Below, piece after piece: positions 4,348 through 55,399 of a DNA stretch of 64,000 nucleotides (positions are counted from its first letter, which is position 1; every line of letters starts with the position of its first letter). Source of the stretch: an uncultured Pseudomonadota bacterium (GTDB lineage Bacteria; Pseudomonadota; Alphaproteobacteria; Rs-D84); assembly GCA_902787665.1 (NCBI GenBank), contig CADAHF010000001.1:2757-66756 (forward strand), written 5' to 3'. Position numbers and translations under genes: made by a program. Below the pieces are notes generated by a model. The model was not told the DNA's origin, did not search any database, and worked only from the letters and a program-made list of their open reading frames with translations.

Positions 4348-5585
4348 TTGCTTTTAATCCATCCCACTGCTTTACCAATCGTTTTTCCTGTGCTTTTGAT
4401 ATTTCCCCACATTGTCTTTGTATCGCCTGTTACTTGGTTGTACAATGCCCCCATGTCTTTGCCTGCGTACGAATTTAATTGTTCGCGTGTTAAATTAAAT
4501 AATTTGAACATAAGATAGAAAGTCAATATTGATGACAACCATAATATAGAATGTTCGCCAAATGCGCCGTTGCTAATTACATCTGTGTCGCTGATAAAAA
4601 TTGAAGAATTCCATGTGAAAAGAGATTTTATTATCGCAACATTTATACCCAACATAAATGCACACATAATCATTGTGATAACAAGTTTTTTTAATGCGCT
4701 TGTTACCCCAGAAAACGCCGGCCAAATATCCAGCCATTTATCATTTGGTTTTGCAACATAAGACAAAACCTGGAACGGATAAAGTGTAAGCGCCATACCG
4801 AATTCAAAAATACCCTGTATAATAAGCAATGCCATAAACAAATTGCTGGCAAAGAAAGTTGATATTAAAATAAGACCAGTAATTATATTTAGAAACACAC
4901 CACCGCCATTTGGTACAAACATTCCGATCCCGGTTAAGCCACGCGTCAACGATTCAAACCCGCGTTTTATCATTGTGTTGTTTGCGGCTGACAAATCATA
5001 TACTGGCCTTATTAAAAAATCACAAGAAGATTTTGATATCCATGCTTTTTGAACGATAGATTCGGGACACTGCGCAACCCCAGTTGTTACACCAGTGTTT
5101 TGAATTGTTTCAGTTATGCTGTGCGTATAAAGTGAACCAAATTGCAGAAAAGGATTTACCAGAACTTCGGTTAAAACAACCGGGCGAATTTGTAATAATA
5201 AACCAGCGGCTATTATTGCACGAAAGCAGGGCTTCAAAACATTAAAAACAATTGTTTGTGGGTCGGCCTTGCCGTCAATCATTTCACCGCCACCAGAAAA
5301 ACCAAATGTTCCCAACCAATTTTTTGGCAGATACATTTTTACCAAATACATTGCAATAGTGATGGCCAAGAATCCCCAAACCAACAAATAAATTATGCCA
5401 TTGCCGTTTCCAACAAAAAATTCATATCCCCCAGATGCAATCGTCATCATCGCATCCAGTACCAATGGGACAAAAGGCGCCAGGTTGAACTTGTCAACAA
5501 AGCCACCGTCTGCCAATGCTGGCAACGGGACAACAAACATCGCCACTAATAAAAAACAAGGCAAAACTTTGCGAAAAAAATTCAT
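4344..5585 (-). CDS. VirB6/TrbL-like polytopic membrane protein, paralog 4 (first gene of the four-gene minus-strand operon)
   Basis: 413 aa. Cleavable-looking signal peptide (…PLPALADGG), multiple TM helices, Lys-rich C-terminus. Confidence 0.5.
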   Translation of the reverse strand: MNFFRKVLPCFLLVAMFVVPLPALADGGFVDKFNLAPFVPLVLDAMMTIASGGYEFFVGNGNGIIYLLVWGFLAITIAMYLVKMYLPKNWLGTFGFSGGGEMIDGKADPQTIVFNVLKPCFRAIIAAGLLLQIRPVVLTEVLVNPFLQFGSLYTHSITETIQNTGVTTGVAQCPESIVQKAWISKSSCDFLIRPVYDLSAANNTMIKRGFESLTRGLTGIGMFVPNGGGVFLNIITGLILISTFFASNLFMALLIIQGIFEFGMALTLYPFQVLSYVAKPNDKWLDIWPAFSGVTSALKKLVITMIMCAFMLGINVAIIKSLFTWNSSIFISDTDVISNGAFGEHSILWLSSILTFYLMFKLFNLTREQLNSYAGKDMGALYNQVTGDTKTMWGNIKSTGKTIGKAVGWIKSK

Positions 5586-5656
5586 TCTCTCTCTTATCTA
5601 TATTTTTATCTTTTCAATTATATCACATTTGGGACAAAATATGATATACTTAAAAC

Positions 5657-6943
5657 ATGCGTTGGTTAAAAAATTTTTGGTTGGTGTTTTTATCGTTCTT
5701 GCCGTTTTCGGCAGGCGCGGTTGCGCCATTGGTCGTTGGGGCGATTGCTGGCGGGGTTGTTTTGGCCGGTTTTTCAATATATCGCACATCAGTACCGGTG
5801 AATATGAGTGACGCTTTTCATTTCTTTTCATCGTGTTGGACATGCCAAATGTTTTCGGATGTTATCGGGACGGTTTCAAACGCTTTGCCCGGTATATATA
5901 GCACCATTGGTATGTTTATAATTCCGTTTACCGCGGCATTACTGGCAATATGGTTGGCGTGGCAGTTGATTGATAGTTATATGAACGGAAAAAATATAGA
6001 ACCATGGTCAATTACTGGTGATTTTGGTGTTCGTATATTAAAACTGGGGGTGGTGTGTGCAATGTTGGTTGCGCCACTGCCGCGTATGATAAACGATATT
6101 GCAATTGAACCGATTTTTAGCATTGGTATGTCGCTTAATCATGCGGTGACGGGGGACGAACGGTTTAATACTTGTGTTGTTGCAACCGCAATTGCGGACC
6201 CAGTATCAATATCAGATACAGCGGCATCTAAAGGCGCTTTTTCACCAAAATTGCGGCATAATTTGGCTTGTGAATTGGGTGTTGTTCATGAAATGACTGG
6301 AATTGGTATGACTGCGGGTTGGACATTGATGAATATGGCATTTAATGAACAATATATGCATAAAATTATGAACACCATACCGATATTCCCCAATGTTTTA
6401 GCTTTCTTTGCGGGTTTGTTGATAATTGTGCTGTTCTTTGCGGCGTTATTGCCAATACCATTGTTCTTTCTTGAGATTTTTGTGAAACTTGCGCTGGATT
6501 TGGTGATGTTGCCATTGTCTCTTATGGCGTGGATTTTCCCAGGTTGGTCGATTTTGCCAGATGGGCGGAAAAATATTAAATCAATTATAAATGATGTTGT
6601 TGCGGCAACAGTTGGAATTGCAATGACTGGAATATTCGTCACTTTTGCGGTTATGTTTATAAATGTGGCATTTGGTGCATGGGGTGGTGTGTCGGCGTTG
6701 TCGGCTGCATTTGCGCAAAACGATTCGCAAATTTTAATGGATGGTATAATGATGCGTAATGACAGTATCGTAACAATAATACTTATGGGTGTATTTATTG
6801 CCATGTTTATGGTATCTATTCCTGCGCTGGTTAAGAGTTTGTTCAACGTAACAATATCTGACGATTTTTATAAAACGACAAAAAACAATATCGAAACGGT
6901 GTGGGCAAACCTGCAGAAAATCTATAAAGAAATAAAAAAATAA
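5657..6943 (+). CDS. VirB6/TrbL-like polytopic membrane protein, paralog 5 (divergently transcribed)
   Basis: 428 aa. N-terminal TM helix, CxxC loop (SCWTCQMF), at least 6 TM helices, C-terminus ...KIYKEIKK. A 71-bp AT-rich divergent intergenic region (5586-5656) separates it from paralog 4. Confidence 0.45.
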   Translation: MRWLKNFWLVFLSFLPFSAGAVAPLVVGAIAGGVVLAGFSIYRTSVPVNMSDAFHFFSSCWTCQMFSDVIGTVSNALPGIYSTIGMFIIPFTAALLAIWLAWQLIDSYMNGKNIEPWSITGDFGVRILKLGVVCAMLVAPLPRMINDIAIEPIFSIGMSLNHAVTGDERFNTCVVATAIADPVSISDTAASKGAFSPKLRHNLACELGVVHEMTGIGMTAGWTLMNMAFNEQYMHKIMNTIPIFPNVLAFFAGLLIIVLFFAALLPIPLFFLEIFVKLALDLVMLPLSLMAWIFPGWSILPDGRKNIKSIINDVVAATVGIAMTGIFVTFAVMFINVAFGAWGGVSALSAAFAQNDSQILMDGIMMRNDSIVTIILMGVFIAMFMVSIPALVKSLFNVTISDDFYKTTKNNIETVWANLQKIYKEIKK

Positions 6944-7011: not shown

Positions 7012-7521
7012 ATGAAGCAGTTTCCGATTCTTTATTGGCCGCGTAAGACAACTGGGGATACGATATACCAGTTGGCGCGTAAGGTTATAAATTCGGCAAC
7101 TGGTGAAATGCCTGATGTTGTTACATCTGATTTGGACTTTCCAAAGATATTCGAATCGAATCCAAATGCGGTCGTTTATTACCCAGTGTTTTGCGAATCG
7201 ACGGGCTGGTGGGGTGAATTGTTGGGGGGTGGCGCGGTTGTCACTGATAAGATAATAATTTCCCCGGAATGTCAGTTGATGGTTATAAAGGCGGAAAATA
7301 ATGCTACGGCACATGGTTCACATCAATTGTTTGCAGCAGAAATTTACCCAGCAAGTGGATTCTTTAAGAAAATGAATTCATCAATTGCAACGGTCGCAGA
7401 TATGTTGGCCACAGACGCCGGAACAATTCTGGCGCTTTTTTCAGGAAAAAATCAGAATCAGTTTGTAAATGTGTTGGAAATGACCGGAAATTCTTACCTT
7501 GGGTGTATTGGTCATTATTAA
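7012..7521 (+). CDS. hypothetical protein (169 aa, no signal peptide or TM)
   Basis: Clean ORF directly downstream of VirB6 paralog 5. No family recognised by eye. Confidence 0.35.
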   Translation: MKQFPILYWPRKTTGDTIYQLARKVINSATGEMPDVVTSDLDFPKIFESNPNAVVYYPVFCESTGWWGELLGGGAVVTDKIIISPECQLMVIKAENNATAHGSHQLFAAEIYPASGFFKKMNSSIATVADMLATDAGTILALFSGKNQNQFVNVLEMTGNSYLGCIGHY

Positions 7522-15680: not shown

Positions 15681-16415
15681 ATGAATTATGTGCGTAAAAT
15701 TTTAGAATCATTTATTGAATTTGTTTTTCCTGCAACTTGCCCATTATGTAACGCACGTGTTTCGACGCATGGTGAATTATGTGACGATTGTTGGACCTCG
15801 TTTAATTGGATTGATGGTGCAAAATGTGTTAAATGTGGTTTTCCCTTTGCATCAAGTTTTGATTTGTCACCAAATATGTTATGCCCGACATGTGCCGCGG
15901 GTAAAGCTGAGCTTGATTTAATTCGTTCGGCATGTGTTTATGATGATGCATCAAAACTTGCGATGTTGCCGTACAAGCATGCTGGACATACACAATATGC
16001 GCGATTTATGTCACGTGCAATGATTTGGGCTTTGCGTGATACAGATATTCAACCCGACATTGTTATGCCAGTGCCATTGGCAAACAAACGTTTGTTTCAT
16101 CGTGGCTATAACCAGGCAACGTTACTTGCGCGACCAATTGCAAATGCGTTTGGTGTGCCGATGGATTTAGATTCTGTCACGCGTAAATATCGTGAGAATA
16201 TGGGGCATAAATCAAGTAAACAACGCGCTGAAAACGTTCATAATGTTTTTACTGTTCGGCATTCAGATAAAATAAAGGGCAAGAAAATATTACTGGTTGA
16301 TGATGTTATGACCACTGGTGCGACATTTAATGAATTAAAACGCGTTTTAACCAAAGCCGGTGCAATCGCTGTATATGGTGTGACTTTTTGCCGTGTTGCA
16401 CATTTGGCGAATTAA
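15681..16415 (+). CDS. comF: ComF-family protein (amidophosphoribosyltransferase-like, competence)
   Basis: N-terminal 4-Cys zinc finger (CPLC…CDDC…CVKC…CPTC). PRTase motif ILLVDDVMTTGAT. Confidence 0.8.
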   Translation: MNYVRKILESFIEFVFPATCPLCNARVSTHGELCDDCWTSFNWIDGAKCVKCGFPFASSFDLSPNMLCPTCAAGKAELDLIRSACVYDDASKLAMLPYKHAGHTQYARFMSRAMIWALRDTDIQPDIVMPVPLANKRLFHRGYNQATLLARPIANAFGVPMDLDSVTRKYRENMGHKSSKQRAENVHNVFTVRHSDKIKGKKILLVDDVMTTGATFNELKRVLTKAGAIAVYGVTFCRVAHLAN

Positions 16416-36964: not shown

Positions 36965-37719
36965 CCCGTTATAAAGTAAATCTTGAATATGATGGAACCG
37001 ATTTAATCGGGTGGCAAGAAAATGCCCAGGGGCCATCTGTACAATCAATTTTGTCGGATGCGATTTTTTCTTTCTGTGGTACGCGTCCCGATGTCGTTGG
37101 CGCGGGTCGCACAGATGCTGGTGTGCATGCGTTAAATATGGTCGCACATTTTGATTTGGATAAAGACGTGGATTCCGAAACAGTTATGCGGGCATTGAAT
37201 TTTTATTTGGTTAATAAACCTGTTGCAGTATTAAATTGCGAAATTGTTGCGGACGATTTTAATGCGCGTTTTGATTGTGTAAGACGCAATTATAAATATG
37301 TCGTATTAAATCGTGGACCGCAACCAGTGTTAAATAAAAATCGTGTTTGGTGGGTGCCGCGCAAATTAAATATAACTGCGATGAAACGCGCAGCTTCAAG
37401 GTTGGTTGGCAAGCATGATTTTACAAGTTTTCGTGCCGCCGAATGTCAGGCAAAGTCACCGATTAAAACGCTTGATTCGGCAACCGTTATAAAACAAGGC
37501 GATGAAATTATTTTCGAATTTTCAGCGCGGTCTTTTTTGCATCACCAGGTTCGTAATATGGTTGGAACATTGGTTGAAATTGGCGCTGGTAAACCATACG
37601 ATATTGATGAGATTTTTGCGGCAAAAAATCGCAGCGCTGCGGGTCCAAATGCACCGGCGTCAGGCCTGTATTTCGTTAGTGCTGAATATTCCAACGGCGG
37701 TTGTAATTCTGATAAATAA
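36961..37719 (+). CDS. truA: tRNA pseudouridine(38-40) synthase
   Basis: …LEYDGTDLIGWQ…GAGRTDAGVHA… includes the catalytic Asp motif. Confidence 0.9.
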   Translation: MTRYKVNLEYDGTDLIGWQENAQGPSVQSILSDAIFSFCGTRPDVVGAGRTDAGVHALNMVAHFDLDKDVDSETVMRALNFYLVNKPVAVLNCEIVADDFNARFDCVRRNYKYVVLNRGPQPVLNKNRVWWVPRKLNITAMKRAASRLVGKHDFTSFRAAECQAKSPIKTLDSATVIKQGDEIIFEFSARSFLHHQVRNMVGTLVEIGAGKPYDIDEIFAAKNRSAAGPNAPASGLYFVSAEYSNGGCNSDK

Positions 37720-39601
37720 TTTTGCCGTTTTCATAAATTATAAATCCATCGCGTAAAATTTTAGATTCACAATTCGGCGCAGTGATATCAAAATACGAAA
37801 CAATATAATCAACCGTTTCATCATTACACAGTTTCGTTATGTTGTTTTGCAGTGCAGAAAATTTCTGCATATATGCGATTTTGATTTTTGGTGATTGAAA
37901 TATATACAATCCTTTTTTATGCTTCGCACGTGTGTTTGGTGTATCTGTTTTTATATGTGCAAAATGTTTCCATGTGTCAAAAGTGAAATAATGATTTGAT
38001 GCGCGCGATTTATTAAATGTAATTTCATTATCATTTACAAACGCGACAAGTTCATGATCGCTTGTTGCCATAAACAACGGTTTTGGTGTGGCTACAATTG
38101 TGATAATGCCAAATAGTATAAATATTGCCCCAAGTATGTAATTCATTTTTATCTTTAACGGGCGAATTAAAACAACGCACATCATGCCAAGAATAATCAA
38201 ACATAGTGCCATATTAGATATATATGGTGTTTGTATTGTGGCATGTGGTAATTCAGCAATAAATTTTGCAACAGACAAAGTAAAGTTATATGCAACATCT
38301 GCAATATGTAATGGAAACGCAAAACCACAAATGGCTGCAAATATGCCAATAATAACAAGTGGCATAATTATAACTGAAAACAGGGGCAGTAAAATTAAGT
38401 TTCCGATAATGCTGTAGATTGGCACCGAATAAAAATGCACGGCGATGAATGGCGCAGTAAAGATTGACGCAACAATCGCAGTTAAAACAGCAGTTGTTAG
38501 ATAACGCGGAATTTTGTTTTCTGGCAGTTTTGGATTAACACAATTCCAAAACCAGACAAGACCAAATATAGCCGAAAAAGATAACTGAAAACCCGCTGTC
38601 ATAATATAATATGGGTTAATCAAAAACAGAATGCAAAATGCCAGACATACATTACGTAATGAAAACGCCCCGCGCCCCAATAATGCTGCCAAACAAATAA
38701 GTGTTGCCATTAAAAATGCGCGCAGTGTTGCAACCGATGCACCAGATATCAGTACATAAGAAATAAGGACGCCCCACGCGCAACACATGGCGATGTGTTT
38801 TGCAGGTATGCGTTTAACAATCGGTGGTATTAAACGAAACAGAAAATAAAATATCGCGAACAACCAACCCATAATAAGCGTCATGTGGAAACCACTGATT
38901 GACCAAACATGCCCAACACCCGTCGATGTCCAGATTTCGCGTTCAGCTGCGGGCAGGGTGTGTTTATATCCCAATATCAAACTGTCCACCAGAGGTGCAT
39001 TTGTGTGGTTGTGTATCCATGAACGTAAGTTATTCGGTGCGCGTTCCGTTATTGTAATATCATCGGCATATCCAGTTGATGTCAGCTTGTTGAAATACGA
39101 CCAACGTGCAAAATCAAAGCCACCGGGTGCGTCCGCCGGGCTGGGGGTGAACAATGTCGCGGTTGTTTCAACTTCATCGTTTATATTTATTTGATTTGCT
39201 GTATCCACAGATATACGCACCACTGCATGACGACTTGAATCAATGTTTAATTCATTTGCGGGAACACTAATATAAATACGTGTCTTGTCGGCGGTATAAT
39301 CAATATCACTAACGCGTCCAGCAATTTCAACATCGCGCAAGTTTTTCTTTAATATTGGTGTATCTATCGTATTGGTGTACGCACACGCGTAAACAAAACC
39401 AAAAAGAAAAATTAAAATTGCGCGAATAATAATTGGTGCGCGCCAAAGACACATTGTCCCAAACAAAATTGCTGATATTAAAAACGCAAATGGAATATGT
39501 GGCTCAAACCCAATTGAAAAATATAGTGCACCACCCGCCGCCATTATAAACGGGACCCATAAAAACAGATTATCTTTTTGCACTTTCCAGATTTCTTGCA
39601 T
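37676..39601 (-). CDS. comEC: ComEC/Rec2-family DNA internalisation channel protein (short form)
   Basis: DUF4131-like N-terminus and a polytopic competence domain. 641 aa. Its 3' end overlaps the truA 3' end by 44 nt (convergent). Confidence 0.7.
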   Translation of the reverse strand: MQEIWKVQKDNLFLWVPFIMAAGGALYFSIGFEPHIPFAFLISAILFGTMCLWRAPIIIRAILIFLFGFVYACAYTNTIDTPILKKNLRDVEIAGRVSDIDYTADKTRIYISVPANELNIDSSRHAVVRISVDTANQININDEVETTATLFTPSPADAPGGFDFARWSYFNKLTSTGYADDITITERAPNNLRSWIHNHTNAPLVDSLILGYKHTLPAAEREIWTSTGVGHVWSISGFHMTLIMGWLFAIFYFLFRLIPPIVKRIPAKHIAMCCAWGVLISYVLISGASVATLRAFLMATLICLAALLGRGAFSLRNVCLAFCILFLINPYYIMTAGFQLSFSAIFGLVWFWNCVNPKLPENKIPRYLTTAVLTAIVASIFTAPFIAVHFYSVPIYSIIGNLILLPLFSVIIMPLVIIGIFAAICGFAFPLHIADVAYNFTLSVAKFIAELPHATIQTPYISNMALCLIILGMMCVVLIRPLKIKMNYILGAIFILFGIITIVATPKPLFMATSDHELVAFVNDNEITFNKSRASNHYFTFDTWKHFAHIKTDTPNTRAKHKKGLYIFQSPKIKIAYMQKFSALQNNITKLCNDETVDYIVSYFDITAPNCESKILRDGFIIYENGKIIYQNYNRRWNIQH

Positions 39602-49409: not shown

Positions 49410-49436
49410 AAATGCCCGTTTGGGCATTTTTATTTA
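49408..49436 (+). terminator. rho-independent terminator after yidC
   Basis: AAAATGCCCGTTTGGGCATTTTTATTT. Confidence 0.75.
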
Positions 49437-49787
49437 TGAATTAAATATTTATACAGTGCATATGGTGTTTGTATAAATATGGATTTTATTTTTAATGTGT
49501 GTTTGCATAAATCAACACAAGAATATGCAGATACACAATCAAGATTTATTGGTGTGGGTGGCGAGATATAAACAAATTTCCAACCATATAGACGCAGAAT
49601 CGTGATGTCACGTGGGCAAAGATGAATTTTTGTAATATGATTTCGTCGTATAAATTGATACATAATTAAATCTTTGCCTGAACATATTATTGGTGCGCAA
49701 TGACGATAATGGCGACACAATATGCGTGGCAAAATTTTGGAAGTGTTTTCTGCAAAAGCAATAATAATCATTGTCGTATCCTTTTTT

Positions 49788-50132
49788 TTATTTTTCTAAC
49801 CAACCGCATTCTAAAGCCGCCGTTTCAATTGTGTTCATTGCATCCCGCCATAATGCCGCTGCACGATTTTCAGACCATATATATTGGTGTGGTGCACGTC
49901 GCCGGTCACCAAATTTTTTCATAACAGCCAATTGTTCATCACTTAATTTCCCACACAGATAAAGTTTGGTTATTAATGTTTCGACATCTAATAATTCACA
50001 CGGTCTGCGTGTTGGTGTGCCGTGGTAATGCGTATATCCATTTTGAACAGATTTAGAATATAAAAACCAAAACCATAATTGTTCTGCATTGTGAAACTTT
50101 TCCTGATTGTATGCCATTTGGGTTTGTGTCAT
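49788..50132 (-). CDS. hypothetical small protein (114 aa), possible HTH-like segment
   Basis: Strong RBS AAGGAG 9 nt upstream of the ATG. It lies immediately downstream of the virB8-10 operon terminators. No family recognised. Confidence 0.4.
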   Translation of the reverse strand: MTQTQMAYNQEKFHNAEQLWFWFLYSKSVQNGYTHYHGTPTRRPCELLDVETLITKLYLCGKLSDEQLAVMKKFGDRRRAPHQYIWSENRAAALWRDAMNTIETAALECGWLEK

Positions 50133-50298: not shown

Positions 50299-50326
50299 CA
50301 AAAAAAAACGCGCAAAGATGCGCGTT
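50299..50326 (-). terminator. second rho-independent terminator downstream of virB10 (minus strand)
   Basis: CGCGCATCTTTGCGCG followed by TTTTTTTTT on the minus strand. Confidence 0.65.
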
Positions 50327-50377
50327 TAATTTATTGTATTGTTTTTATTGTTATGATGTATCCATATAATTACCCTT

Positions 50378-50429: not shown

Positions 50430-52775
50430 CTACAATATCGGCGGGAAACAATCGCCACCAACTTCGGGACAGCAATTAAATCCCTGGTCGCCCATATCTG
50501 TATAAATTTCACCAGCACAACAACCATTTGCATCTGGATTAGAACCGTCTGTACATTTTATTACTGCTTCTGATGCATTGTTTCCAGAAGAAGAGTTCTT
50601 GAACGGATTTTCAATTGTGCCGTTATCGTTGTATTTTAACCCAAGAACTTGTTCATTATATTTCTGTGTTCCTTTGCCACCTGTGCTGGCAATACTGTTA
50701 GTATTAGATGGATCTTGTTGATTTTGATAAACCGCTTGTTGTTTTGCATTATTAATTGCCTCATAATTACTGGCCTGACAATATGCGACAAGCGTGCTGT
50801 ATGAATAACCCAATTTCTGTAATTCTTCGCGCACTGTATCATATGATTTTGCAGTTATAATACCATTTTTAGGTTCACACAGATTACCCAAATTAAATGA
50901 ACGTGCCTGACCAACCCAAGTACCATCGTTATAATCTGCATATGCACCCCATTTTGGTGTGCTGCGTACATTATTTGCCATGGCGGTACGAACCATACAT
51001 TTTTCGTTTGTTGTGCACGCAACCATTAAATCATTTGGAGAATATACTGTAATACGTGTTCCAGCCGGAATCGTAAATGGCGGAACGGTATTATCCATCA
51101 TATCAACCAATAATTTTTGTGCAACCTGATTCCAAGCAGTTATGATTTCGTTTTTTGCAAGTTCAGAAGAACGCATGGTCCCACTTTGCACAACGGTGTT
51201 ATTATCCAAATCAATTTGGTTTACGAATTTATCAGCAACCGGTGCAATCATATTAACAGCCGCTGGAACAATAGATGTTAACATTGGCATAACGAATTGT
51301 TCTAAGTAATCGGTACTGCCCCGTCCAGGAACACCAATACGACCCTGGGCGTCGGCAGAAACAGGTTCGTCATTTGCAAAATTAAATTCAACACCATTTG
51401 GTAAAACAAATTGATACCATTTTATGTTCATACGACCGATTGCCTTATAAGGACCAGGTACTTGACCGGTGACATAACCCAACAACAATGTTCCTGTTGG
51501 AATTATTATTGTTCGACCATTGTCTGAATACACATTACGGTCAACCGTTGCGCGAACAGGAAAATGTAAGTTATCTGCATCCAATGCCGTATCAGCACGA
51601 ACATCCGATACAATTGTTGCAGGAATTGGTTTATATTGACGAAGGATAAATGTTCTGTCATATGGTTGTGTTGACACGACAACAGTTTGGTCTGTGGTAT
51701 CAAATATTGCATCTTTGATTGGTGCTGGATTTAATGTAATGCGACCCATTTCACCGATTGGTTCGCTTGCCACAGATGTTGGACGATTTGCAACACGTGC
51801 ACGTGGTGCGTCCATAAGTGTCGGCATTAAACCGGTTGTCAAAGCAGAATTTATATGTTCTGCATCAGTACCGATTTTTTTGCCAGCATCATTAATATCT
51901 GTAATCAAACCCGTTCCAGGATTATATATCCCAGTTGCGTTTTTACAATTGCGATCAGAAAACAGATAGAAATAATAACCACCGTGTTCTGGTTTTATCC
52001 AACCATTTTGAGTGCCATATACATCATACCCAGGAAACGCAAAGTCAGAACAACTTTCGCTTGGGTGGACAACCGGTGCAACAGATGGTTCCGTTGCTGT
52101 CGGCAATTTTGTTTTGGTTGTTTTAACAGGTTCTGTTGCAAATGGATCTGATGGCGCAATAGATTTAACCTCTTGTTCAATTTTTGTAGCTGTTGTTGGC
52201 GCAACATATTCAGGTTCATCAAAATCATTGATTTGTTTTTTTGGTGTTACAACTGATTTTGGTTTTTCAATTTGCTCTGGTGCGGATGCGCCCAAAACCA
52301 CCATAACTTTTTCCGCAGATTTCATTTCTTCGGGTTCGTTTTCGCCACGCCAATATATAGATAATGTTAATGTTTCTGGTTTTGCGGCAACAGTCGGCGC
52401 ATATTCCAAAAATACATTACATGAAATTTTGGCATTTATAACGGCGGCATCTGTGCATGTGGTTTTTGCACTAAAACCAGCAACAGTTTTATTTTGACCC
52501 ATTGATACCTTAGCAGGGGCGGTTGTTTTCACAGATATGGTTTGTGTCTTTTTTTCGCCAACGGTTACATTTGCCCAATCGACAGTATCGGCCGACAAAG
52601 TTATTTTCACAGGGACATCTTCTTTGACTGGTGCGGCAGATTTATTTTTTGTTCCAGTCAGTAATAATGTTAACAAAATCAATACCACAATGAATGTTGC
52701 ACCCAAAAGCAACCATTGAACTTGCTTTGGGGTCGAGTCACGCATATTTAAAAATTGTTGTTTTAATTTGTTCAT
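50430..52775 (-). CDS. virB10: T4SS VirB10/TrbI-family protein, enlarged (~780 aa) with extra N-terminal periplasmic domains and a Cys-rich ~200-aa C-terminal extension
   Basis: Cytoplasmic N-terminus and one TM helix (WLLLGATFIVVLILLTLLL). The conserved VirB10 C-terminal barrel region is present (…DRNVYSDNGRTIIIPTGTLLLGYV…RIGVPGRG…GTRITVYSPNDL…). The ATG at 52775 is preferred over the GTG at 52793. Confidence 0.75.
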   Translation of the reverse strand: MNKLKQQFLNMRDSTPKQVQWLLLGATFIVVLILLTLLLTGTKNKSAAPVKEDVPVKITLSADTVDWANVTVGEKKTQTISVKTTAPAKVSMGQNKTVAGFSAKTTCTDAAVINAKISCNVFLEYAPTVAAKPETLTLSIYWRGENEPEEMKSAEKVMVVLGASAPEQIEKPKSVVTPKKQINDFDEPEYVAPTTATKIEQEVKSIAPSDPFATEPVKTTKTKLPTATEPSVAPVVHPSESCSDFAFPGYDVYGTQNGWIKPEHGGYYFYLFSDRNCKNATGIYNPGTGLITDINDAGKKIGTDAEHINSALTTGLMPTLMDAPRARVANRPTSVASEPIGEMGRITLNPAPIKDAIFDTTDQTVVVSTQPYDRTFILRQYKPIPATIVSDVRADTALDADNLHFPVRATVDRNVYSDNGRTIIIPTGTLLLGYVTGQVPGPYKAIGRMNIKWYQFVLPNGVEFNFANDEPVSADAQGRIGVPGRGSTDYLEQFVMPMLTSIVPAAVNMIAPVADKFVNQIDLDNNTVVQSGTMRSSELAKNEIITAWNQVAQKLLVDMMDNTVPPFTIPAGTRITVYSPNDLMVACTTNEKCMVRTAMANNVRSTPKWGAYADYNDGTWVGQARSFNLGNLCEPKNGIITAKSYDTVREELQKLGYSYSTLVAYCQASNYEAINNAKQQAVYQNQQDPSNTNSIASTGGKGTQKYNEQVLGLKYNDNGTIENPFKNSSSGNNASEAVIKCTDGSNPDANGCCAGEIYTDMGDQGFNCCPEVGGDCFPPIL

Positions 52776-52807: not shown

Positions 52808-54349
52808 TTATTGAATACGAACGACACTGCAACTTGCACCACTGAACTTTAACAATTGGTCACACAGTTTTTGTGCCGCATCAATATCACTCATTGGACC
52901 AATGCGCAAACGATACAAGCGTGCCGCAGATGCGCCCGACCCAAGATCGCCAACACCCTGTTCGTCAACAGCAAAGAACACCTTGTCTTTATATGGGGTC
53001 AATATTCCTTGTCCATTGTCGCCACTGAATTTAGCAAGCAAATCAACCCAGTAATCATTTAACGCCTTGACCGAAGAATCTGATTTCAATTCAACGGCAA
53101 CACCAGCCTGATTGCTTGTAATAAGTGGAATGTTTGATTGTGGCAAATATGAACCAGCCGTAACGCGTTCTGTTGGCATCATTGTTACACCACCTGCAGA
53201 TTGTGTCATTGGTGTTATTGTTGCAGGTTGTGGATATGCCTGGCCAGCAACGAAGCCGGTTGGCATATAATAGCCAGCCGCGGCATTGTTGGACATATCG
53301 CCAATCATAACAGGTGTCCCGGTATTATTCACACCAGCACTATTTATGGCGGCCATATCATAACCATAAGCCATATTGTTCAACGATTGTCCCGACATCA
53401 TAGATTGTGCAACATTTGCCTCAGCCAAAGCCATAACAGATGCGGTATCAGTAATCAAGAATGGTTTTTCACGTTTTTTGATACATACGATACGTTGACC
53501 ACTGCGCAAGACCATGTCGCCAACCGCTTCGACAATAATCAAACGGCCGTCTTCACCATCGGTACGGAAACCAACAGGGGATTCGCCACCTTCGACCAAC
53601 AATGAAACCACCGGACGTTGAGTCATGGATATAACCTTGTCACCGAAATCAATATATGTGAATATACGGTCACGCCATACACGTTCAGGCGCAATTACAT
53701 AATCGTCTGGATTTGGAACAAAGATATCCAAATCAAAGCGAAATTCAGAAGGGTCGATTTTCATTGATTTTATCCAGCCATAATCTTCGCCATCAACACC
53801 GACCGTGTTTGATTTTTGGGCACTCTTTTTAAATACAGATGACATCGTGCCATTTGGCATTGTTGTGCCGGTTGCATTTGGCAAAGTTGCGCCACCGTCC
53901 ATTACAACTTCGACCTGAGAATAGGTAACCTCAGACGAATTGGATGGTTCTGCACGCAGATAGAATATGTATTTGTTGCCAGATTTACCAGTAACAATCA
54001 AATTAGTATCACCACCTTGGACCCCAGAATTTGGTGTTAAATACATAACGTTTGTGCCAGCGGTACCTTCAAATTTAAACAAACCATCGTCGCCAAACAT
54101 ACCATCTTCGATTTGTTCGCCGTTTGGCAATGTAACCATCGTAACCATGCCACTGCGCAATTTGATTGGTAAAACCGTTCCTTTGGACCAGGACAATTGT
54201 GCATAACCAGGTTTGGTGCTGCCCGATGTCATATTTGCACTTGGGTTATTCCACGCATTCTGTGCAGAAAATGCCGACATTGGCATGGCGCAAACACAAG
54301 CCAAGCACAATAAAGAAATGTTCAACTTAATCGTTCTTGAAAATATCAT
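52808..54349 (-). CDS. virB9: T4SS VirB9/TrbG-family protein fused to a C-terminal FtsN-like SPOR domain
   Basis: Signal peptide (…LLCLACVCAMPMSAFSA). VirB9 N-domain (…PIKLRSGMVTMVTLPNGEQIEDGMFGDD…NLIVTGKSGNKYIFYLRAE…) and C-domain (…IFTYIDFGDKV…RLIIVEAVGDMVLRSGQRIVCIKK…). The terminal ~95 aa are SPOR-like and carry a Cys pair (…LYRLRIGPMSDIDAAQKLCDQLLKFSGASCSVVRIQ). RBS AAAGGAAAGG before the ATG at 54349. Confidence 0.7.
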   Translation of the reverse strand: MIFSRTIKLNISLLCLACVCAMPMSAFSAQNAWNNPSANMTSGSTKPGYAQLSWSKGTVLPIKLRSGMVTMVTLPNGEQIEDGMFGDDGLFKFEGTAGTNVMYLTPNSGVQGGDTNLIVTGKSGNKYIFYLRAEPSNSSEVTYSQVEVVMDGGATLPNATGTTMPNGTMSSVFKKSAQKSNTVGVDGEDYGWIKSMKIDPSEFRFDLDIFVPNPDDYVIAPERVWRDRIFTYIDFGDKVISMTQRPVVSLLVEGGESPVGFRTDGEDGRLIIVEAVGDMVLRSGQRIVCIKKREKPFLITDTASVMALAEANVAQSMMSGQSLNNMAYGYDMAAINSAGVNNTGTPVMIGDMSNNAAAGYYMPTGFVAGQAYPQPATITPMTQSAGGVTMMPTERVTAGSYLPQSNIPLITSNQAGVAVELKSDSSVKALNDYWVDLLAKFSGDNGQGILTPYKDKVFFAVDEQGVGDLGSGASAARLYRLRIGPMSDIDAAQKLCDQLLKFSGASCSVVRIQ

Positions 54350-54371: not shown

Positions 54372-55049
54372 CTATTCCCTGCCAATGACGAACGCATCAA
54401 GCGGATCACCATCGCCAGATTCAACCGTGTATTCTGCAACACGCAAGCCCAATGGATTTTCCATATGGTCGGTCCAACGCATCGCATTTGCATCATCGGT
54501 TACCAGTGTTATCTTTATTCTATAATCTTTTCGGTCGGTCTGTCCATAACTATTTGTACAAAACCATTTGAAATCAACAGTATATACCGAACCGTCAGAT
54601 GTGTATTTATTTACACTGCCCGGGGAAAATTCCACCGAACAAGAAAAATCAAAACTGCCGTTATTCAGCAAGAATTCTTGATACATCGCAGTGCCCGCAA
54701 ATCCAGCAAAAATATCGTCCGAAGACATTGTTTTTATGGTGCCGTTCTGCATACCCCAATTTTTCTCCATAGTGCGAACACTGGGGCTAACCTCATTACG
54801 TGTTTTGATATATTCGGCAATAAAAGCGCGTTTATAGCGTTCTAAATCATCACCATCTGGCATAACCTGGGTAAGTGTAACCTGGGCATTGTTCGGGTTG
54901 ACGGAACGTAGAAAGAACACCTCTGGTCTATCAAGAGGAAACATTTTATACAGTGTTATCAGCAGCGCAGCCAGCACAACCAACGTTGCCGCAAAGACAA
55001 GCGTCAAAACCCGAGACAGTAAAATTGGCGGTTCTATGCGGTTTTGCAC
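54372..55049 (-). CDS. virB8: T4SS VirB8/TrbF-family protein
   Basis: 225 aa, bitopic, with N-terminal TM helix LLSRVLTLVFAATLVVLAALLITL. NTF2-like periplasmic domain ending with the VirB8-like NPLGLRVAEYTV motif. The GTG start is preceded by the strong RBS GGGGGAGA. Confidence 0.55.
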   Translation of the reverse strand: MQNRIEPPILLSRVLTLVFAATLVVLAALLITLYKMFPLDRPEVFFLRSVNPNNAQVTLTQVMPDGDDLERYKRAFIAEYIKTRNEVSPSVRTMEKNWGMQNGTIKTMSSDDIFAGFAGTAMYQEFLLNNGSFDFSCSVEFSPGSVNKYTSDGSVYTVDFKWFCTNSYGQTDRKDYRIKITLVTDDANAMRWTDHMENPLGLRVAEYTVESGDGDPLDAFVIGRE

Positions 55050-55075
55050 GAATTTCTCCCCCTTGGTATATCGCG

Positions 55076-55105
55076 ATTGTAGAAAAATTTGATATGGTGG
55101 TGCAA
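55076..55105 (-). promoter_or_regulatory. candidate sigma70 promoter of the virB8-virB9-virB10 operon (TTGCAC-18 nt-TACAAT)
   Basis: On the minus strand, TTGCAC (55100-55105) and TACAAT (55076-55081), about 25 nt upstream of the RBS. Confidence 0.35.
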
Positions 55106-55273
55106 GTGAAAATTACACAAATTTAAGATTTTATAAAATACGGGGTAATTTTTTCTTGCGCTGATTTTTTTTAATCTTTATAATATTTCCACTTGATTTT
55201 TTATATGGCTGTGGTATCTTAGCGCAGATCATTGGGGGTATTGCAGCAGAAATCGGGCGATATTTTATAGTTA

Positions 55274-55347
55274 CAGGGGCATAGTTCAACGGTAGAATAT
55301 CGGTCTCCAAAACCGCGGATGAGGGTTCGATTCCTTCTGCCCCTGCC
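55274..55347 (+). tRNA. tRNA-Trp (anticodon CCA)
   Basis: Cloverleaf AGGGGCA…TGCCCCT, anticodon loop CTCCAAA, T-loop GGTTCGATTCC. Upstream of secE, as in the conserved tRNA-Trp-secE-nusG arrangement. Confidence 0.85.
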
Positions 55348-55399
55348 AGAATACTGGGCAAACAATGGTCGTAACGTGAGAAAAAATTGGGTAAGTTTT

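What the first reader, a model, noticed from the sequence alone, without database searches (positions are those of the whole stretch)
50430..52775. Oversized VirB10 with additional N-terminal periplasmic domains and a Cys-rich C-terminal extension
The ORF encodes about 780 aa, against roughly 380-480 for typical VirB10/TrbI. Between the TM helix and the conserved barrel domain lie about 300 extra residues. These include a beta-rich segment (…VDWANVTVGEKKTQTISVKTT…LTLSIYWRG…) and a Cys-containing segment (…CSDFAFPGYDVYGTQNGWIKPEHGGYYFYLFSDRNC…). After the conserved C-terminal barrel, the last ~200 residues carry 11 Cys, including two CC pairs (…NGCCAGEIYTDMGDQGFNCCPEVGGDCFPPIL). This looks like a disulfide-rich module of unknown function. 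Extensions on the energy-sensing gate protein would change the geometry of the outer-membrane core complex.
Basis: partly seen in the sequence, partly recalled or inferred. Interest (0 to 1): 0.65.

Follow-up and report, generated by a model that had tools for sequence, protein, structure and literature searches.

The report
Oversized VirB10 with shared cysteine-knot tail
This is a real, conserved, double-length version of the VirB10 secretion-channel protein from tiny-genome gut bacteria, and its last 43 residues are an undescribed six-cysteine module that also ends more than a hundred other envelope protein families in these bacteria.

Summary
The ORF (window 50430-52775, minus strand, 781 aa) is real and is a VirB10/TrbI-family protein (Pfam TrbI at aa 380-582). 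It closes a chromosomal virB8-virB9-virB10 operon between tRNA-Trp/secE/nusG and yidC.

It is not an assembly artefact. Full-length relatives (46-94% identity) occur in 120+ protein clusters, 197 species genomes and 277 metagenome stretches. Those that are named are gut and rumen Alphaproteobacteria of the Candidatus Enterousia / Rs-D84 kind, which have genomes under 1 Mb. All 14 Cys are conserved: 13 invariant, one in 94% of 120 homologues.

The layout is:
- cytoplasmic tail and TM helix
- ASH/PapD-like Ig domain (aa 52-168)
- Pro/Thr/Lys linker
- small disulfide-clamped beta domain of unknown fold (aa 240-312)
- barrel (aa 375-583)
- 155-aa VirB10-specific extension
- 43-aa six-Cys terminal module

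New result: the terminal module is autonomous and almost always C-terminal. It also ends 114 of the 150 best non-VirB10 cluster representatives, which are small Sec-exported proteins with 1-3 copies and roughly 700-aa bitopic proteins. It matches no Pfam, NCBIfam or PDB entry.

I propose an outer-membrane-proximal stabilising and docking role, which is inferred and not shown. No T4SS ATPase gene lies near any of about 150 loci, so what the system transports is open.

The parts
50430..52775 (-). virB10-like CDS, 781 aa plus stop codon
   Evidence: ORF list and translation. Pfam TrbI hit. Full-length homologues.
52656..52775 (-). Cytoplasmic tail (aa 1-20) and single TM helix (aa 21-40)
   Evidence: Sequence WLLLGATFIVVLILLTLLLT, 45% Leu. 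80% identical across homologues.
52272..52622 (-). ASH/PapD-like Ig-type beta-sandwich domain (aa 52-168) with conserved Cys107-Cys119 pair
   Evidence: AF2 pLDDT above 90. Foldseek hits: CEP192 PapD-like domain 6fvi at E 3.8e-6 (TM 0.64 by target) and HYDIN 2e6j at E 5.6e-5 (TM 0.71). Sub-threshold sequence hits: choice-of-anchor D E 7.5e-5, Cep192_D4 E 0.002.
52059..52271 (-). Pro/Thr/Lys/Glu-rich disordered linker (aa 169-239), the counterpart of the VirB10 proline-rich region
   Evidence: 15% Pro, 14% Thr, 13% Lys. pLDDT around 50. 20-41% identity across homologues.
51840..52058 (-). Small beta-rich domain with C-terminal helix (aa 240-312), clamped by invariant Cys242-Cys277; fold family unknown
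   Evidence: pLDDT 91-93. 62-76% identity. No Pfam hit below E 0.06, and the best PDB sequence hit has E 0.029.
51654..51839 (-). Second disordered linker (aa 313-374), including the lever-arm-equivalent stretch leading into the barrel
   Evidence: pLDDT 36-65. The BLASTP alignment to canonical VirB10 starts at aa 352.
51027..51653 (-). VirB10/TrbI beta-barrel domain (aa 375-583)
   Evidence: Pfam PF03743. Alignment to Agrobacterium VirB10. PDB sequence hits to CagY, ComB10, TrwE and Xanthomonas VirB10.
51096..51317 (-). Putative two-helix antenna (outer-membrane pore) region inside the barrel (aa 487-560); the most conserved part of the protein
   Evidence: 89-96% identity across 120 homologues. 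Aligns with the corresponding insert of Agrobacterium VirB10. Helical nature is inferred from the family and was not modelled here.
50562..51026 (-). VirB10-specific C-terminal extension (aa 584-738) with two invariant Cys pairs (587/593 and 633/666), a hairpin-plus-long-helix core and a YNEQVLGLKY...NPF motif
   Evidence: AF2 pLDDT 82-89 for aa 632-682. Among the best 150 representatives this region is found only together with VirB10 parts or in truncated fragments of such proteins. No PDB fold match below E 2.
50433..50561 (-). Terminal six-Cys module (aa 739-781): C-x-DG-x2-PD-x2-GCC-x-GE-x-YTDMG-x2-GFNCCP-x2-GGDCFPPIL
   Evidence: 81-90% identity. It is an autonomous module in 114 of the 150 best non-VirB10 representatives, and it ends within 7 residues of the C-terminus in 145 of 148 proteins. 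No Pfam, NCBIfam or PDB match.
50306..50327 (-). Terminator-like GC-rich hairpin followed by a T-run, about 100 nt after the virB10 stop
   Evidence: 9-bp stem with 5 GC pairs, then TTTTTTGTTT. This is a consensus match only.
52808..54349 (-). virB9-like gene (CagX domain), with a long Met/Gly/Ala-rich region and a C-terminal SPOR domain. The start is probably Met50 of the 562-aa ORF that runs to 54496.
   Evidence: Pfam CagX E 1.8e-20. SPOR 22.8 bits against a cut-off of 21. Signal peptide seen after Met50. 72-91% identical in 80 loci.
54372..55049 (-). virB8-like gene (225 aa)
   Evidence: Pfam VirB8 E 7.7e-11, 42.7 bits against a cut-off of 23.2. Conserved in 76 of 80 loci.

Best explanation
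**Identity (shown)**
This is the genuine VirB10 (TrbI-family) scaffold subunit of a vertically inherited chromosomal virB8-virB9-virB10 operon. The host is a gut alphaproteobacterium of the Candidatus Enterousia / Rs-D84 kind, a lineage with genomes under 1 Mb. The protein keeps the canonical parts: a short cytoplasmic tail, one inner-membrane helix, a Pro-rich spacer, and a C-terminal barrel whose antenna region is the most conserved stretch.

**Four lineage-specific additions (shown)**
1. An ASH/PapD-like Ig domain.
2. A small disulfide-clamped beta domain.
3. A 155-residue extension after the barrel, found only in VirB10 of this lineage.
4. A 43-residue six-cysteine module at the very C-terminus.

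The terminal module is an autonomous domain. It also terminates many Sec-exported small proteins (one to three copies each) and roughly 700-aa bitopic proteins with long acidic, Pro-rich periplasmic linkers. At least one such protein is encoded in the same genome assembly as a VirB10 locus.

**Mechanism (inferred)**
- The barrel forms the outer-membrane pore as in other T4SSs.
- The two N-terminal folded domains thicken the periplasmic stalk and inner layer.
- The C-terminal extension starts at the periplasmic base of the outer layer. It may act as an in-cis stabiliser, because no VirB7-type lipoprotein gene is present in the cluster.
- It presents an oxidised, disulfide-knotted knob near the outer membrane.
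- The same knob sits at the tip of other envelope-spanning or periplasmic proteins. It is therefore most likely a common docking or anchoring module, binding either one shared outer-membrane-proximal partner or itself.

**What the system transports**
This is not settled. DNA uptake in the manner of ComB and contact-dependent transfer are about equally likely.
For: **Identity**
- Pfam TrbI is above threshold.
- The protein aligns to Agrobacterium VirB10 across the whole barrel.
- PDB sequence hits include CagY, ComB10, TrwE and Xanthomonas VirB10.
- virB8 and virB9 are adjacent.
- The order nusG / virB8-9-10 / orf114-orf113 / yidC is kept in 80 species.

**Real and under selection**
- 120 full-length clusters, 197 species genomes and 277 metagenome stretches.
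- All Cys are conserved, and identity differs strongly by region.

**Domains**
- AF2 models and Foldseek matches to ASH/PapD-like domains.

**Module autonomy**
- The profile search gave 249 hits at E <= 0.001.
- Of the best 150, 114 contain only module copies. Of those, 72 have an N-terminal signal or anchor and 23 are long bitopic proteins.
- The last module ends 0-7 residues from the C-terminus in 145 of 148 proteins.
- The Cys count is even in 69 of 72 small proteins.

**Same genome**
- P0147 is on JAIDWS010000004.1 and VirB10 locus L010 is on JAIDWS010000035.1, both about 51% GC.

**No VirB7**
- No VirB7-like lipoprotein ORF lies in 49.3-55.7 kb.

**Canonical roles**
- The canonical roles and topology of VirB10 are taken from PMC3297438.
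Against: - The docking or stabilising role is inference only. No interaction, localisation or multimer model was obtained.
- The AF2 model of the C-terminal extension is only moderate (mean pLDDT 70, pTM 0.32), and its position relative to the barrel was not modelled.
- No VirB4, VirB11, VirD4, VirB2, VirB3 or VirB6 homologue was detected by tblastn in the 64-kb window. None was found within 10 kb of about 150 related VirB10 loci (80 genome loci, 71 metagenome loci). Membership of a complete T4SS is therefore unproven.
- The protein scores far below NCBI's equivalog cut-offs for VirB10 (65 against 220) and ComB10 (56 against 300).
- The lipoprotein check was a simple lipobox regular-expression scan of this window only.
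Confidence: 0.55

Rival explanations
1. The virB8-9-10 genes belong to a ComB-like DNA-uptake T4SS. The machine would bring DNA across the outer membrane for ComEC, supplying nucleotides to a bacterium that cannot make them. The VirB10 extensions would adapt the outer-membrane complex for import.
For: - The operon ends after virB10 with a terminator-like hairpin. No virB11 or virD4 follows in about 150 loci. In H. pylori comB6-comB10 the layout is the same and VirD4 is absent (PMC7366825).
- ComEC (window 37676-39601) and a ComFC-type protein (DZR plus Pribosyltran, 15681-16415) are kept in this window, in a lineage whose genomes are reported to be under 1 Mb.
- Rs-D84 genomes are reported to lack nucleotide synthesis, and type IV pili were reported only for another lineage (PMC12306168).
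- The best solved-structure sequence hits are the Helicobacter proteins CagY and ComB10, ahead of TrwE and Xanthomonas VirB10.
Against: - The ComB10 equivalog score is far below its cut-off (56 against 300).
- There is no comB6 or comB7 upstream.
- ComB4, ComB2 and ComB3 were not found, although only a small part of the genome could be searched.
- ComB is reported to be a recent acquisition within Helicobacteraceae (PMC13395361), so this would be an independent co-option.
- The weak DNase NucA/NucB hit in the tail (E 0.028) was not reproduced by a profile search of PDB sequences.
Confidence: 0.3
2. The genes are one islet of a scattered effector-translocating or contact-dependent T4SS, as in the Rickettsiales rvh system. 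It would be used to exploit a host or partner cell. The extra domains and the shared Cys module would mediate surface or partner contacts.
For: - The lineage is alphaproteobacterial with a reduced genome and is proposed to depend on a partner. Some of these MAGs are labelled 'uncultured Rickettsiales'.
- T4SS genes scattered in islets are typical of Rickettsiales (PMC2653234 was listed but not read; the arrangement is from my own knowledge).
- A tandem array of five paralogous polytopic membrane proteins at window 411-6943 recalls the rvh virB6 array.
Against: - In Rickettsiales virB8-9-10 is followed directly by virB11-virD4. That is not so in any of about 150 loci here.
- The paralogue array shows no detectable similarity to VirB6: hhalign probability 0.2, and no PDB or Pfam hit.
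- The VirB10 C-terminus is periplasmic in known systems, so surface exposure of the module is not expected.
Confidence: 0.3
3. VirB8/9/10 here form a stand-alone envelope-spanning scaffold that no longer belongs to a T4SS. It would serve as a hub or tether that organises the many module-bearing envelope proteins.
For: - No ATPase or pilin gene was found near any locus.
- The operon sits among housekeeping genes with fixed synteny.
- VirB9 has gained a peptidoglycan-binding SPOR domain.
- The module links VirB10 to a large set of envelope proteins.
Against: - The antenna or pore region is the most conserved part, at 89-96% identity, which argues for a working channel.
- T4SS genes are often scattered in reduced genomes.
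- Only about 64 kb of a genome of roughly 0.9 Mb was seen.
Confidence: 0.12
4. The long ORF is an assembly or sequencing artefact, either a frameshift fusion of virB10 with a downstream gene or a chimera.
For: None was found. Some short database entries carry only the tail.
Against: - The same uninterrupted architecture occurs in 120+ clusters, 197 species genomes and dozens of metagenome contigs from different pipelines.
- The short tail-only entries start inside the barrel or the extension at internal Met codons, so they appear to be contig-truncated fragments.
Confidence: 0.01

Closest known systems
Canonical VirB10 / TrbI (A. tumefaciens VirB10, pKM101 TraF, R388 TrwE)
   Same: A bitopic inner-membrane protein with a Pro-rich spacer and a C-terminal barrel with an antenna region. 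It is encoded after virB8 and virB9. The Pfam TrbI domain is above threshold.
   Different: - It is twice as long.
- Two folded domains are inserted before the barrel.
- 198 residues follow the barrel, against 24 in the Agrobacterium protein compared here.
- The operon has no adjacent virB11 or virD4 and no VirB7-like lipoprotein gene.
CagY (H. pylori Cag T4SS VirB10 homologue) and DotG (Legionella Dot/Icm)
   Same: Both are precedents for greatly enlarged VirB10 homologues that decorate an elaborated outer-membrane core complex. CagY's C-terminal domain is the best solved-structure sequence hit. From my own knowledge, CagY repeats also carry regularly spaced Cys.
   Different: Their additions lie N-terminal to the barrel and are repeats. 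Here the most unusual addition is C-terminal to the barrel and non-repetitive. There is no sequence similarity outside the barrel.
ComB10 of the H. pylori ComB DNA-uptake T4SS
   Same: A chromosomal B8-B9-B10 operon with no following virB11 or virD4, and ComEC present in the genome. ComB10 is the third-best PDB hit.
   Different: ComB10 is a protein of normal size (from my own knowledge; the solved chain 2bhv_A is 246 aa). The NCBIfam ComB10 score is 56 against a cut-off of 300. There is no comB6 or comB7 upstream, and the ComB4/2/3 partners were not found in the sequence available.
TonB-type periplasm-spanning proteins (analogy for the module-bearing bitopic proteins)
   Same: An inner-membrane anchor, a long Pro/Glu-rich linker and a small C-terminal domain positioned to reach the outer membrane (sequences).
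   Different: There is no sequence or fold relation. The terminal domain here is a six-Cys knot, and no TonB-box partners are known.
Granulin and other small disulfide-ladder beta-hairpin modules
   Same: A C / CC / CC / C spacing with a 'CCP' motif and a predicted beta-hairpin.
   Different: There is no Pfam Granulin hit, and Foldseek to human granulin A gives E 8.8, which is not significant. This is a resemblance only.

Membership tests
VirB10 / TrbI family (Pfam PF03743) | TrbI domain scoring above Pfam's gathering threshold | tested here: met
   70.4 bits against a cut-off of 35, E 2.4e-19, aa 380-582 covering profile positions 4-185 of 188.
VirB10 / TrbI family (Pfam PF03743) | Bitopic topology: short cytoplasmic N-terminus, one TM helix, Pro-rich periplasmic spacer | tested here: met
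   TM helix at aa 21-40. The aa 169-239 linker is 15% Pro. Topology is inferred from sequence only.
VirB10 / TrbI family (Pfam PF03743) | Barrel alignable end to end, including the antenna insert, with a canonical VirB10 | tested here: met
   BLASTP aligns aa 352-583 with Agrobacterium VirB10 residues 159-379, E 4e-17. The barrel was not modelled in 3D here.
VirB10 / TrbI family (Pfam PF03743) | Encoded together with virB8 and virB9 | tested here: met
   VirB8 (PF04335) and CagX/VirB9 (PF03524) lie directly upstream. The arrangement is conserved in 76-80 of 80 loci.
Complete type IV secretion system | VirB4 ATPase, plus VirB3/VirB6 and a pilin, in the same genome | tested here: inconclusive
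   tblastn found none in the 64-kb window or within 10 kb of about 150 related VirB10 loci. Whole genomes could not be scanned, and short divergent proteins such as VirB2, VirB3 and VirB6 could be missed.
NCBIfam T4SS_VirB10 equivalog (NF038091) | Score at or above the curated cut-off | tested here: not met
   65.3 bits against 220. This is a divergent family member, not an equivalog.
ComB10 / ComB competence T4SS (NF038092) | Equivalog score; comB6-comB10 operon; partner comB2-4; ComEC | tested here: not met
   56.4 bits against 300, and no comB6 or comB7 upstream. ComEC is present. The operon ends after B10, as in comB. ComB4 was not found in the sequence available.
Rickettsiales rvh T4SS | Contiguous virB8-virB9-virB10-virB11-virD4 islet | tested here: not met
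   No VirB11 or VirD4 lies within 10 kb downstream in any locus. A terminator-like hairpin follows virB10.
ASH / PapD-like (MSP-fold) Ig domains; NCBIfam choice-of-anchor D | Fold match and family-level sequence score | tested here: inconclusive
   The fold matches: Foldseek E 1.3e-6 to 1e-4, TM 0.64-0.71 normalised by target. Sequence scores are below the cut-offs: 23.2 against 45, and 18.6 against 35.5. The fold class is met and family membership is not.
DNase NucA/NucB (PF14040) | Domain score above threshold | tested here: not met
   15.4 bits against 23.8, E 0.028. A profile of 30 tails found no nuclease among PDB sequences.
Known C-terminal sorting or anchoring domains and Cys-rich families (NCBIfam, Pfam) | Any match of the terminal 43-aa module | tested here: not met
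   No Pfam hit for 29 diverse modules at E <= 1. No NCBIfam hit in VirB10, P0147 or P0157. No PDB sequence hit at E <= 10.
SPOR domain (in the neighbouring VirB9) | Pfam SPOR above threshold | tested here: met
   22.8 bits against 21, covering only the C-terminal half of the profile. The match is marginal.

The most novel reading that the evidence does not exclude
The 43-residue six-Cys tail is a new class of C-terminal docking or sorting domain. It would gather a whole set of envelope proteins, namely VirB10, small exported proteins and periplasm-spanning bitopic proteins, at one outer-membrane site. This would occur in ultra-small, partner-dependent gut Alphaproteobacteria. The enlarged VirB8/9/10 complex would be the hub of a contact or uptake machine for DNA or metabolites, which would help explain how these bacteria live without biosynthetic pathways.
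Probability: 0.2. Interest if true: 0.8.

Novelty: new variant of a known kind. Interest (0 to 1): 0.58.

Why it matters
VirB10 is the only T4SS subunit that spans both membranes, and it gates the outer-membrane pore. The enlarged homologues I know of (CagY, DotG) add material before the barrel. Here a large conserved addition follows the barrel.

The tail ends in a module shared with more than a hundred other envelope protein families of the same uncultured lineage. That gives a concrete handle for mapping the envelope interaction network of Rs-D84 / Enterousia bacteria.

These bacteria have genomes under 1 Mb, lack most biosynthesis and lack standard importers (PMC12306168). How they obtain building blocks is unknown. 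A retained, elaborated VirB8/9/10 complex next to core genes is a prime candidate for that interface. The module is also a candidate new domain family for Pfam or NCBIfam.

Tried and rejected
1. **DNase reading of the tail.** Pfam NucA/NucB gave E 0.028. A 30-sequence profile found no nuclease among PDB sequences. Rejected.
2. **Granulin or defensin-like knot.** Only non-significant Foldseek hits, E 4-9, and no Pfam hit. Kept as a loose resemblance only.
4. **Fold of domain 2 (aa 240-312).** The best profile hit in PDB was 'Flagellin hook IN motif family' at E 0.029. Pfam gave nothing below E 0.06. Unresolved. Foldseek results for the N-terminal model were dominated by the Ig domain.
5. **Homologue search with domain 2 alone.** The word index found almost no candidates for the 95-aa query, so that search was wasted.
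6. **T4SS partners.** tblastn used Agrobacterium VirB2, B3, B4, B5, B6, B8, B11 and D4 as queries. It found none in the window, in 80 genome loci, in 80 metagenome loci or in 6 loci carrying other module proteins. Whole-genome scans were not possible, because only 10 kb on each side of a match can be fetched.
7. **Five tandem membrane-protein paralogues (411-6943) as a VirB6 array.** No support: hhalign probability 0.2, and no PDB, Pfam or NCBIfam hit.
8. **Small module protein next to an ABC transporter as a clue to export.** The transporter is housekeeping LolCDE, so nothing can be inferred from it.
9. **Stand-alone copies of the whole C-terminal extension.** The short hits appear to be truncated VirB10 fragments.
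10. **Literature.** No paper links Rs-D84 or Enterousia with type IV secretion. The mSphere paper has no supplement held as text.


Full report
**Observation**

The minus-strand ORF at window 50430-52775 encodes 781 aa from an ATG. An in-frame GTG 18 nt upstream would give 787 aa, but homologues start at the ATG. Pfam TrbI (PF03743) matches aa 380-582 at E 2.4e-19, 70.4 bits against a cut-off of 35.

BLASTP against the VirB10 of an Agrobacterium plasmid aligns aa 352-583 with residues 159-379 of that 403-aa protein. The conserved domain therefore ends 198 residues before this protein's C-terminus, against 24 in the canonical one.

Among solved structures the barrel hits CagY, ComB10, TrwE and Xanthomonas VirB10. 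The TM helix is aa 21-40.

The protein has 14 Cys, at 107, 119, 242, 277, 587, 593, 633, 666, 741, 752, 753, 768, 769 and 776. The last 200 residues hold 10 of them, not 11. The two CC pairs are as described. There are 335 residues between the TM helix and the barrel, about 200 more than in the Agrobacterium protein rather than 300.

**Not an artefact, and under selection**

- A search of 5.8 billion proteins returned 120 listed clusters that cover 99-100% of the query at 52-94% identity. All carry the TrbI domain, and the named ones are 'Alphaproteobacteria bacterium' MAGs.
- The exact protein lies on two independent ENA contigs.
- In a one-genome-per-species collection, 197 stretches encode a relative. 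The 80 kept are full length at 46-80% identity. They come from rumen, colon and faecal MAGs labelled Alphaproteobacteria, 'Candidatus Enterousia' or 'uncultured Rickettsiales'.
- A later metagenome scan added 277 stretches, and 71 of the 80 loci kept carry VirB10 parts.
- In the 121-sequence alignment, 13 Cys are invariant and one is 94% conserved.
- Identity by region: 80-96% in the barrel (89-96% in the antenna region), 81-90% in the last 40 residues, 62-76% in aa 241-320, about 50% in aa 61-160, and 19-41% in the linkers.

**Organism and locus**

Candidatus Enterousia belongs to the uncultured order Rs-D84. This is a gut alphaproteobacterial lineage with genomes mostly under 1 Mb. It has no amino-acid, nucleotide or lipid biosynthesis, no respiration and no standard importers, and it is proposed to depend on a partner (PMC12306168; taxonomy).

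The gene order, read in the direction of the virB genes, is:
- tRNA-Trp, secE, nusG, rplKAJL and rpoB on the opposite strand, diverging from virB8
- virB8 (54372-55049), virB9 (52808-54349) and virB10
- a terminator-like hairpin at 50306-50327
- two conserved small ORFs of 114 and 113 aa
- yidC on the opposite strand, converging

. This order is kept in all 80 species loci. VirB9 is 72-91% identical there and VirB10 is 47-80% identical. The rest of the 64-kb window is housekeeping. It includes ComEC at 37676-39601 and a ComFC-type gene at 15681-16415.

**Anatomy of the protein**

AlphaFold2 with a 111-row alignment gave two confident folded domains in aa 41-375.

- **Domain 1 (aa 52-168, pLDDT above 90)** is a beta-sandwich. 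Foldseek matches ASH/PapD-like domains: CEP192 6fvi at E 3.8e-6 (TM 0.64 normalised by target) and HYDIN 2e6j at TM 0.71, plus pilus chaperones. This agrees with sub-threshold sequence hits to choice-of-anchor D, Cep192_D4 and ASH.
- **Domain 2 (aa 240-312, pLDDT about 92)** is a small beta domain with a C-terminal helix, bracketed by the invariant Cys242 and Cys277. Profile searches found nothing convincing.
- **The linkers** (aa 169-239 and 313-374) are predicted to be disordered. The first is rich in Pro, Thr and Lys.
- **The C-terminal 199 residues** gave a moderate model (mean pLDDT 70, pTM 0.32). There is a better-defined hairpin plus long helix at aa 632-690 and a beta-hairpin in the terminal Cys region. 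Foldseek against the PDB found nothing below E 2. Sequence and profile searches of PDB sequences found nothing either.

**The terminal module is autonomous**

A profile of 30 diverse tails was scored against 1.84 billion cluster representatives. It gave 249 hits at E <= 0.001.

The full 200-residue tail occurs only in VirB10-like proteins and in what appear to be contig-truncated fragments of them. These include clusters below 50% identity that keep the whole architecture, such as P0141 and P0198.

The last 43 residues also occur alone. The consensus is C-x-DG-x2-P[DN]-x2-GCC-x-GE-x-[YF][TK]D[ML]G-x2-[GV]F[NA]CCP-x2-GGDC[FY]PP[ILM]. Of the 150 best representatives, 114 contain only this module: 99 with one copy, 14 with two and 1 with three. 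They fall into these classes:
- 72 proteins of 44-346 aa with an N-terminal signal or anchor. Many share an N-terminal Cys-pair helical segment.
- 23 bitopic proteins of 635-852 aa. These have a cytoplasmic coiled-coil region, a mid-protein TM helix, a long acidic Pro-rich linker and the module at the tip.
- 16 unclassified proteins and 3 fragments.

The last module ends within 7 residues of the C-terminus in 145 of 148 proteins. The mature parts of 69 of the 72 small proteins have an even number of Cys.

One such protein (P0147, two modules) is on contig JAIDWS010000004.1. VirB10 locus L010 is on JAIDWS010000035.1 of the same assembly, and both loci are about 51% GC. Named members are all 'hypothetical protein' from Alphaproteobacteria or Proteobacteria MAGs.

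No Pfam, NCBIfam or PDB sequence matches the module. Within the window and the 80 genome loci, only VirB10 carries it.

**How it most likely works**

*Shown.* This is a VirB10-family protein with intact canonical parts, four conserved additions and a tail module shared with other exported or periplasm-facing proteins of the same bacteria.

*Established knowledge.* VirB10 is anchored in the inner membrane. It forms the outer layer and the outer-membrane pore with VirB9 and VirB7, and it relays ATPase-driven conformational changes (PMC3297438).

*Inferred.*
- The two N-terminal folded domains lie in the periplasmic stalk or inner-layer region.
- The C-terminal extension leaves the base of the barrel on the periplasmic side of the outer membrane. 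It may stabilise the complex in cis, since a lipobox scan found no VirB7-type lipoprotein gene in 49.3-55.7 kb.
- VirB9 has gained its own additions, a Met/Gly-rich region and a SPOR domain.
- The invariant, even-numbered Cys and the Sec-exported context indicate disulfides.
- The same knob sits at the extreme C-terminus of proteins whose linkers could span the periplasm. It is therefore best read as a common docking or anchoring domain near the outer membrane, either homotypic or directed at one shared partner.

I put about 0.95 on the identity and architecture. I put about 0.3 on the docking or stabilising role specifically.

**What the system does**

No VirB4, VirB11, VirD4, VirB2, VirB3 or VirB6 homologue was detectable in the window. 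None was found within 10 kb of about 150 related VirB10 loci (80 genome loci and 71 metagenome loci), or near the module-protein loci fetched.

The B8-B9-B10 operon with nothing after it resembles H. pylori comB6-comB10 (PMC7366825). It does not resemble the Rickettsiales B8-B9-B10-B11-D4 islet. ComEC and ComFC are retained, and the lineage cannot make nucleotides. These points favour a DNA-uptake role.

The family scores do not support ComB membership. ComB is also reported to be a recent Helicobacteraceae innovation (PMC13395361). I rate a ComB-like uptake system and an rvh-like contact or effector system about equal at 0.3 each. I rate a repurposed scaffold at about 0.12.

**Comparison with known systems and novelty**

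The protein is a member of the VirB10/TrbI family. It is not an equivalog of canonical VirB10 or of ComB10. Enlarged VirB10 homologues are known (CagY, DotG), but from my own knowledge their additions precede the barrel. A conserved 198-residue post-barrel extension and the two N-terminal domains are, as far as these searches show, undescribed. The terminal module matches no curated family.

I class the finding as a new variant of a known kind that carries a candidate new domain family.

**Limits**

- Whole genomes could not be scanned.
- The barrel and any complex were not modelled.
- The C-terminal model is of moderate confidence.

Noticed in passing
window 52808-54349 (-): The neighbouring VirB9 is also oversized, at about 513 aa from the Met that precedes a signal peptide. 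After the CagX domain comes a region of about 180 aa rich in Met, Gly and Ala, then a C-terminal SPOR (peptidoglycan-binding) domain at 22.8 bits against a cut-off of 21. It is more conserved than VirB10, at 72-91% identity in 80 loci.
   Followed up: partly
window 411-6943 (four genes on -, one on +), plus 7012-7521 (+): Five tandem paralogous polytopic membrane proteins of 400-480 aa. Each has 6-7 predicted TM segments and a Lys-rich C-terminal tail, and pairwise identity is 20-24%. They have no Pfam or NCBIfam hit, and 866 'hypothetical' homologues occur in the same kind of MAGs. They recall the virB6 arrays of Rickettsiales, but hhalign to Agrobacterium VirB6 gave probability 0.2 and a profile search of PDB sequences gave nothing.
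   Followed up: partly
window 49788-50132 (-) and 49430-49771 (-): Two small ORFs of 114 and 113 aa lie downstream of virB10, after a terminator-like hairpin. They are conserved in 75 and 73 of 80 loci, at 61-85% and 45-71% identity among the loci listed. Neither has a Pfam or NCBIfam hit. The second is basic and rich in Cys and His. Any link to the virB genes is unknown.
   Followed up: partly
window 37676-39601 (-) and 15681-16415 (+): ComEC (DUF4131 plus Competence domains, 641 aa, no hit to the metallo-beta-lactamase domain) and a ComFC-type protein (double zinc ribbon plus phosphoribosyltransferase). Both are retained in a lineage reported to have genomes under 1 Mb and no nucleotide biosynthesis. 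This bears on a possible DNA-uptake role for the virB genes.
   Followed up: partly
L089 5650-10555 and L087 1318-6336: A small secreted protein carrying two copies of the Cys module sits at the end of a conserved gene row: about 106 aa, about 450 aa, LolC/E, LolD, about 190 aa, then the module protein. The arrangement is the same in two unrelated contigs. The ABC transporter is the housekeeping lipoprotein-release system, and the three flanking proteins have no family hit.
   Followed up: partly
L088 5165-12241: The 746-aa bitopic module protein (P0278) lies next to a prepilin-peptidase (Peptidase_A24) gene and four proteins without Pfam hits (105, 570, 536 and 120 aa). A phage integrase and a run of small ORFs lie just beyond. 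This may be a Tad-like pilus locus beside a prophage remnant.
   Followed up: no
window 55275-55348 (+): tRNA-Trp lies immediately upstream of secE-nusG-rplK, divergent from virB8. This is an ordinary arrangement, but it fixes the upstream boundary of the virB operon's promoter region (55050-55274).
   Followed up: yes
P0182 (852 aa) and P0138 (270 aa), among the proteins returned: The module has two sequence subtypes: 'PDxNGCC.GE.YTDMG..GFNCCP' and 'KPNK[FY]GCC.GE.FKDLGN..FACCP'. The two often occur together in one small protein. Internal copies are followed by short Pro- and Ala-rich spacers.
   Followed up: partly
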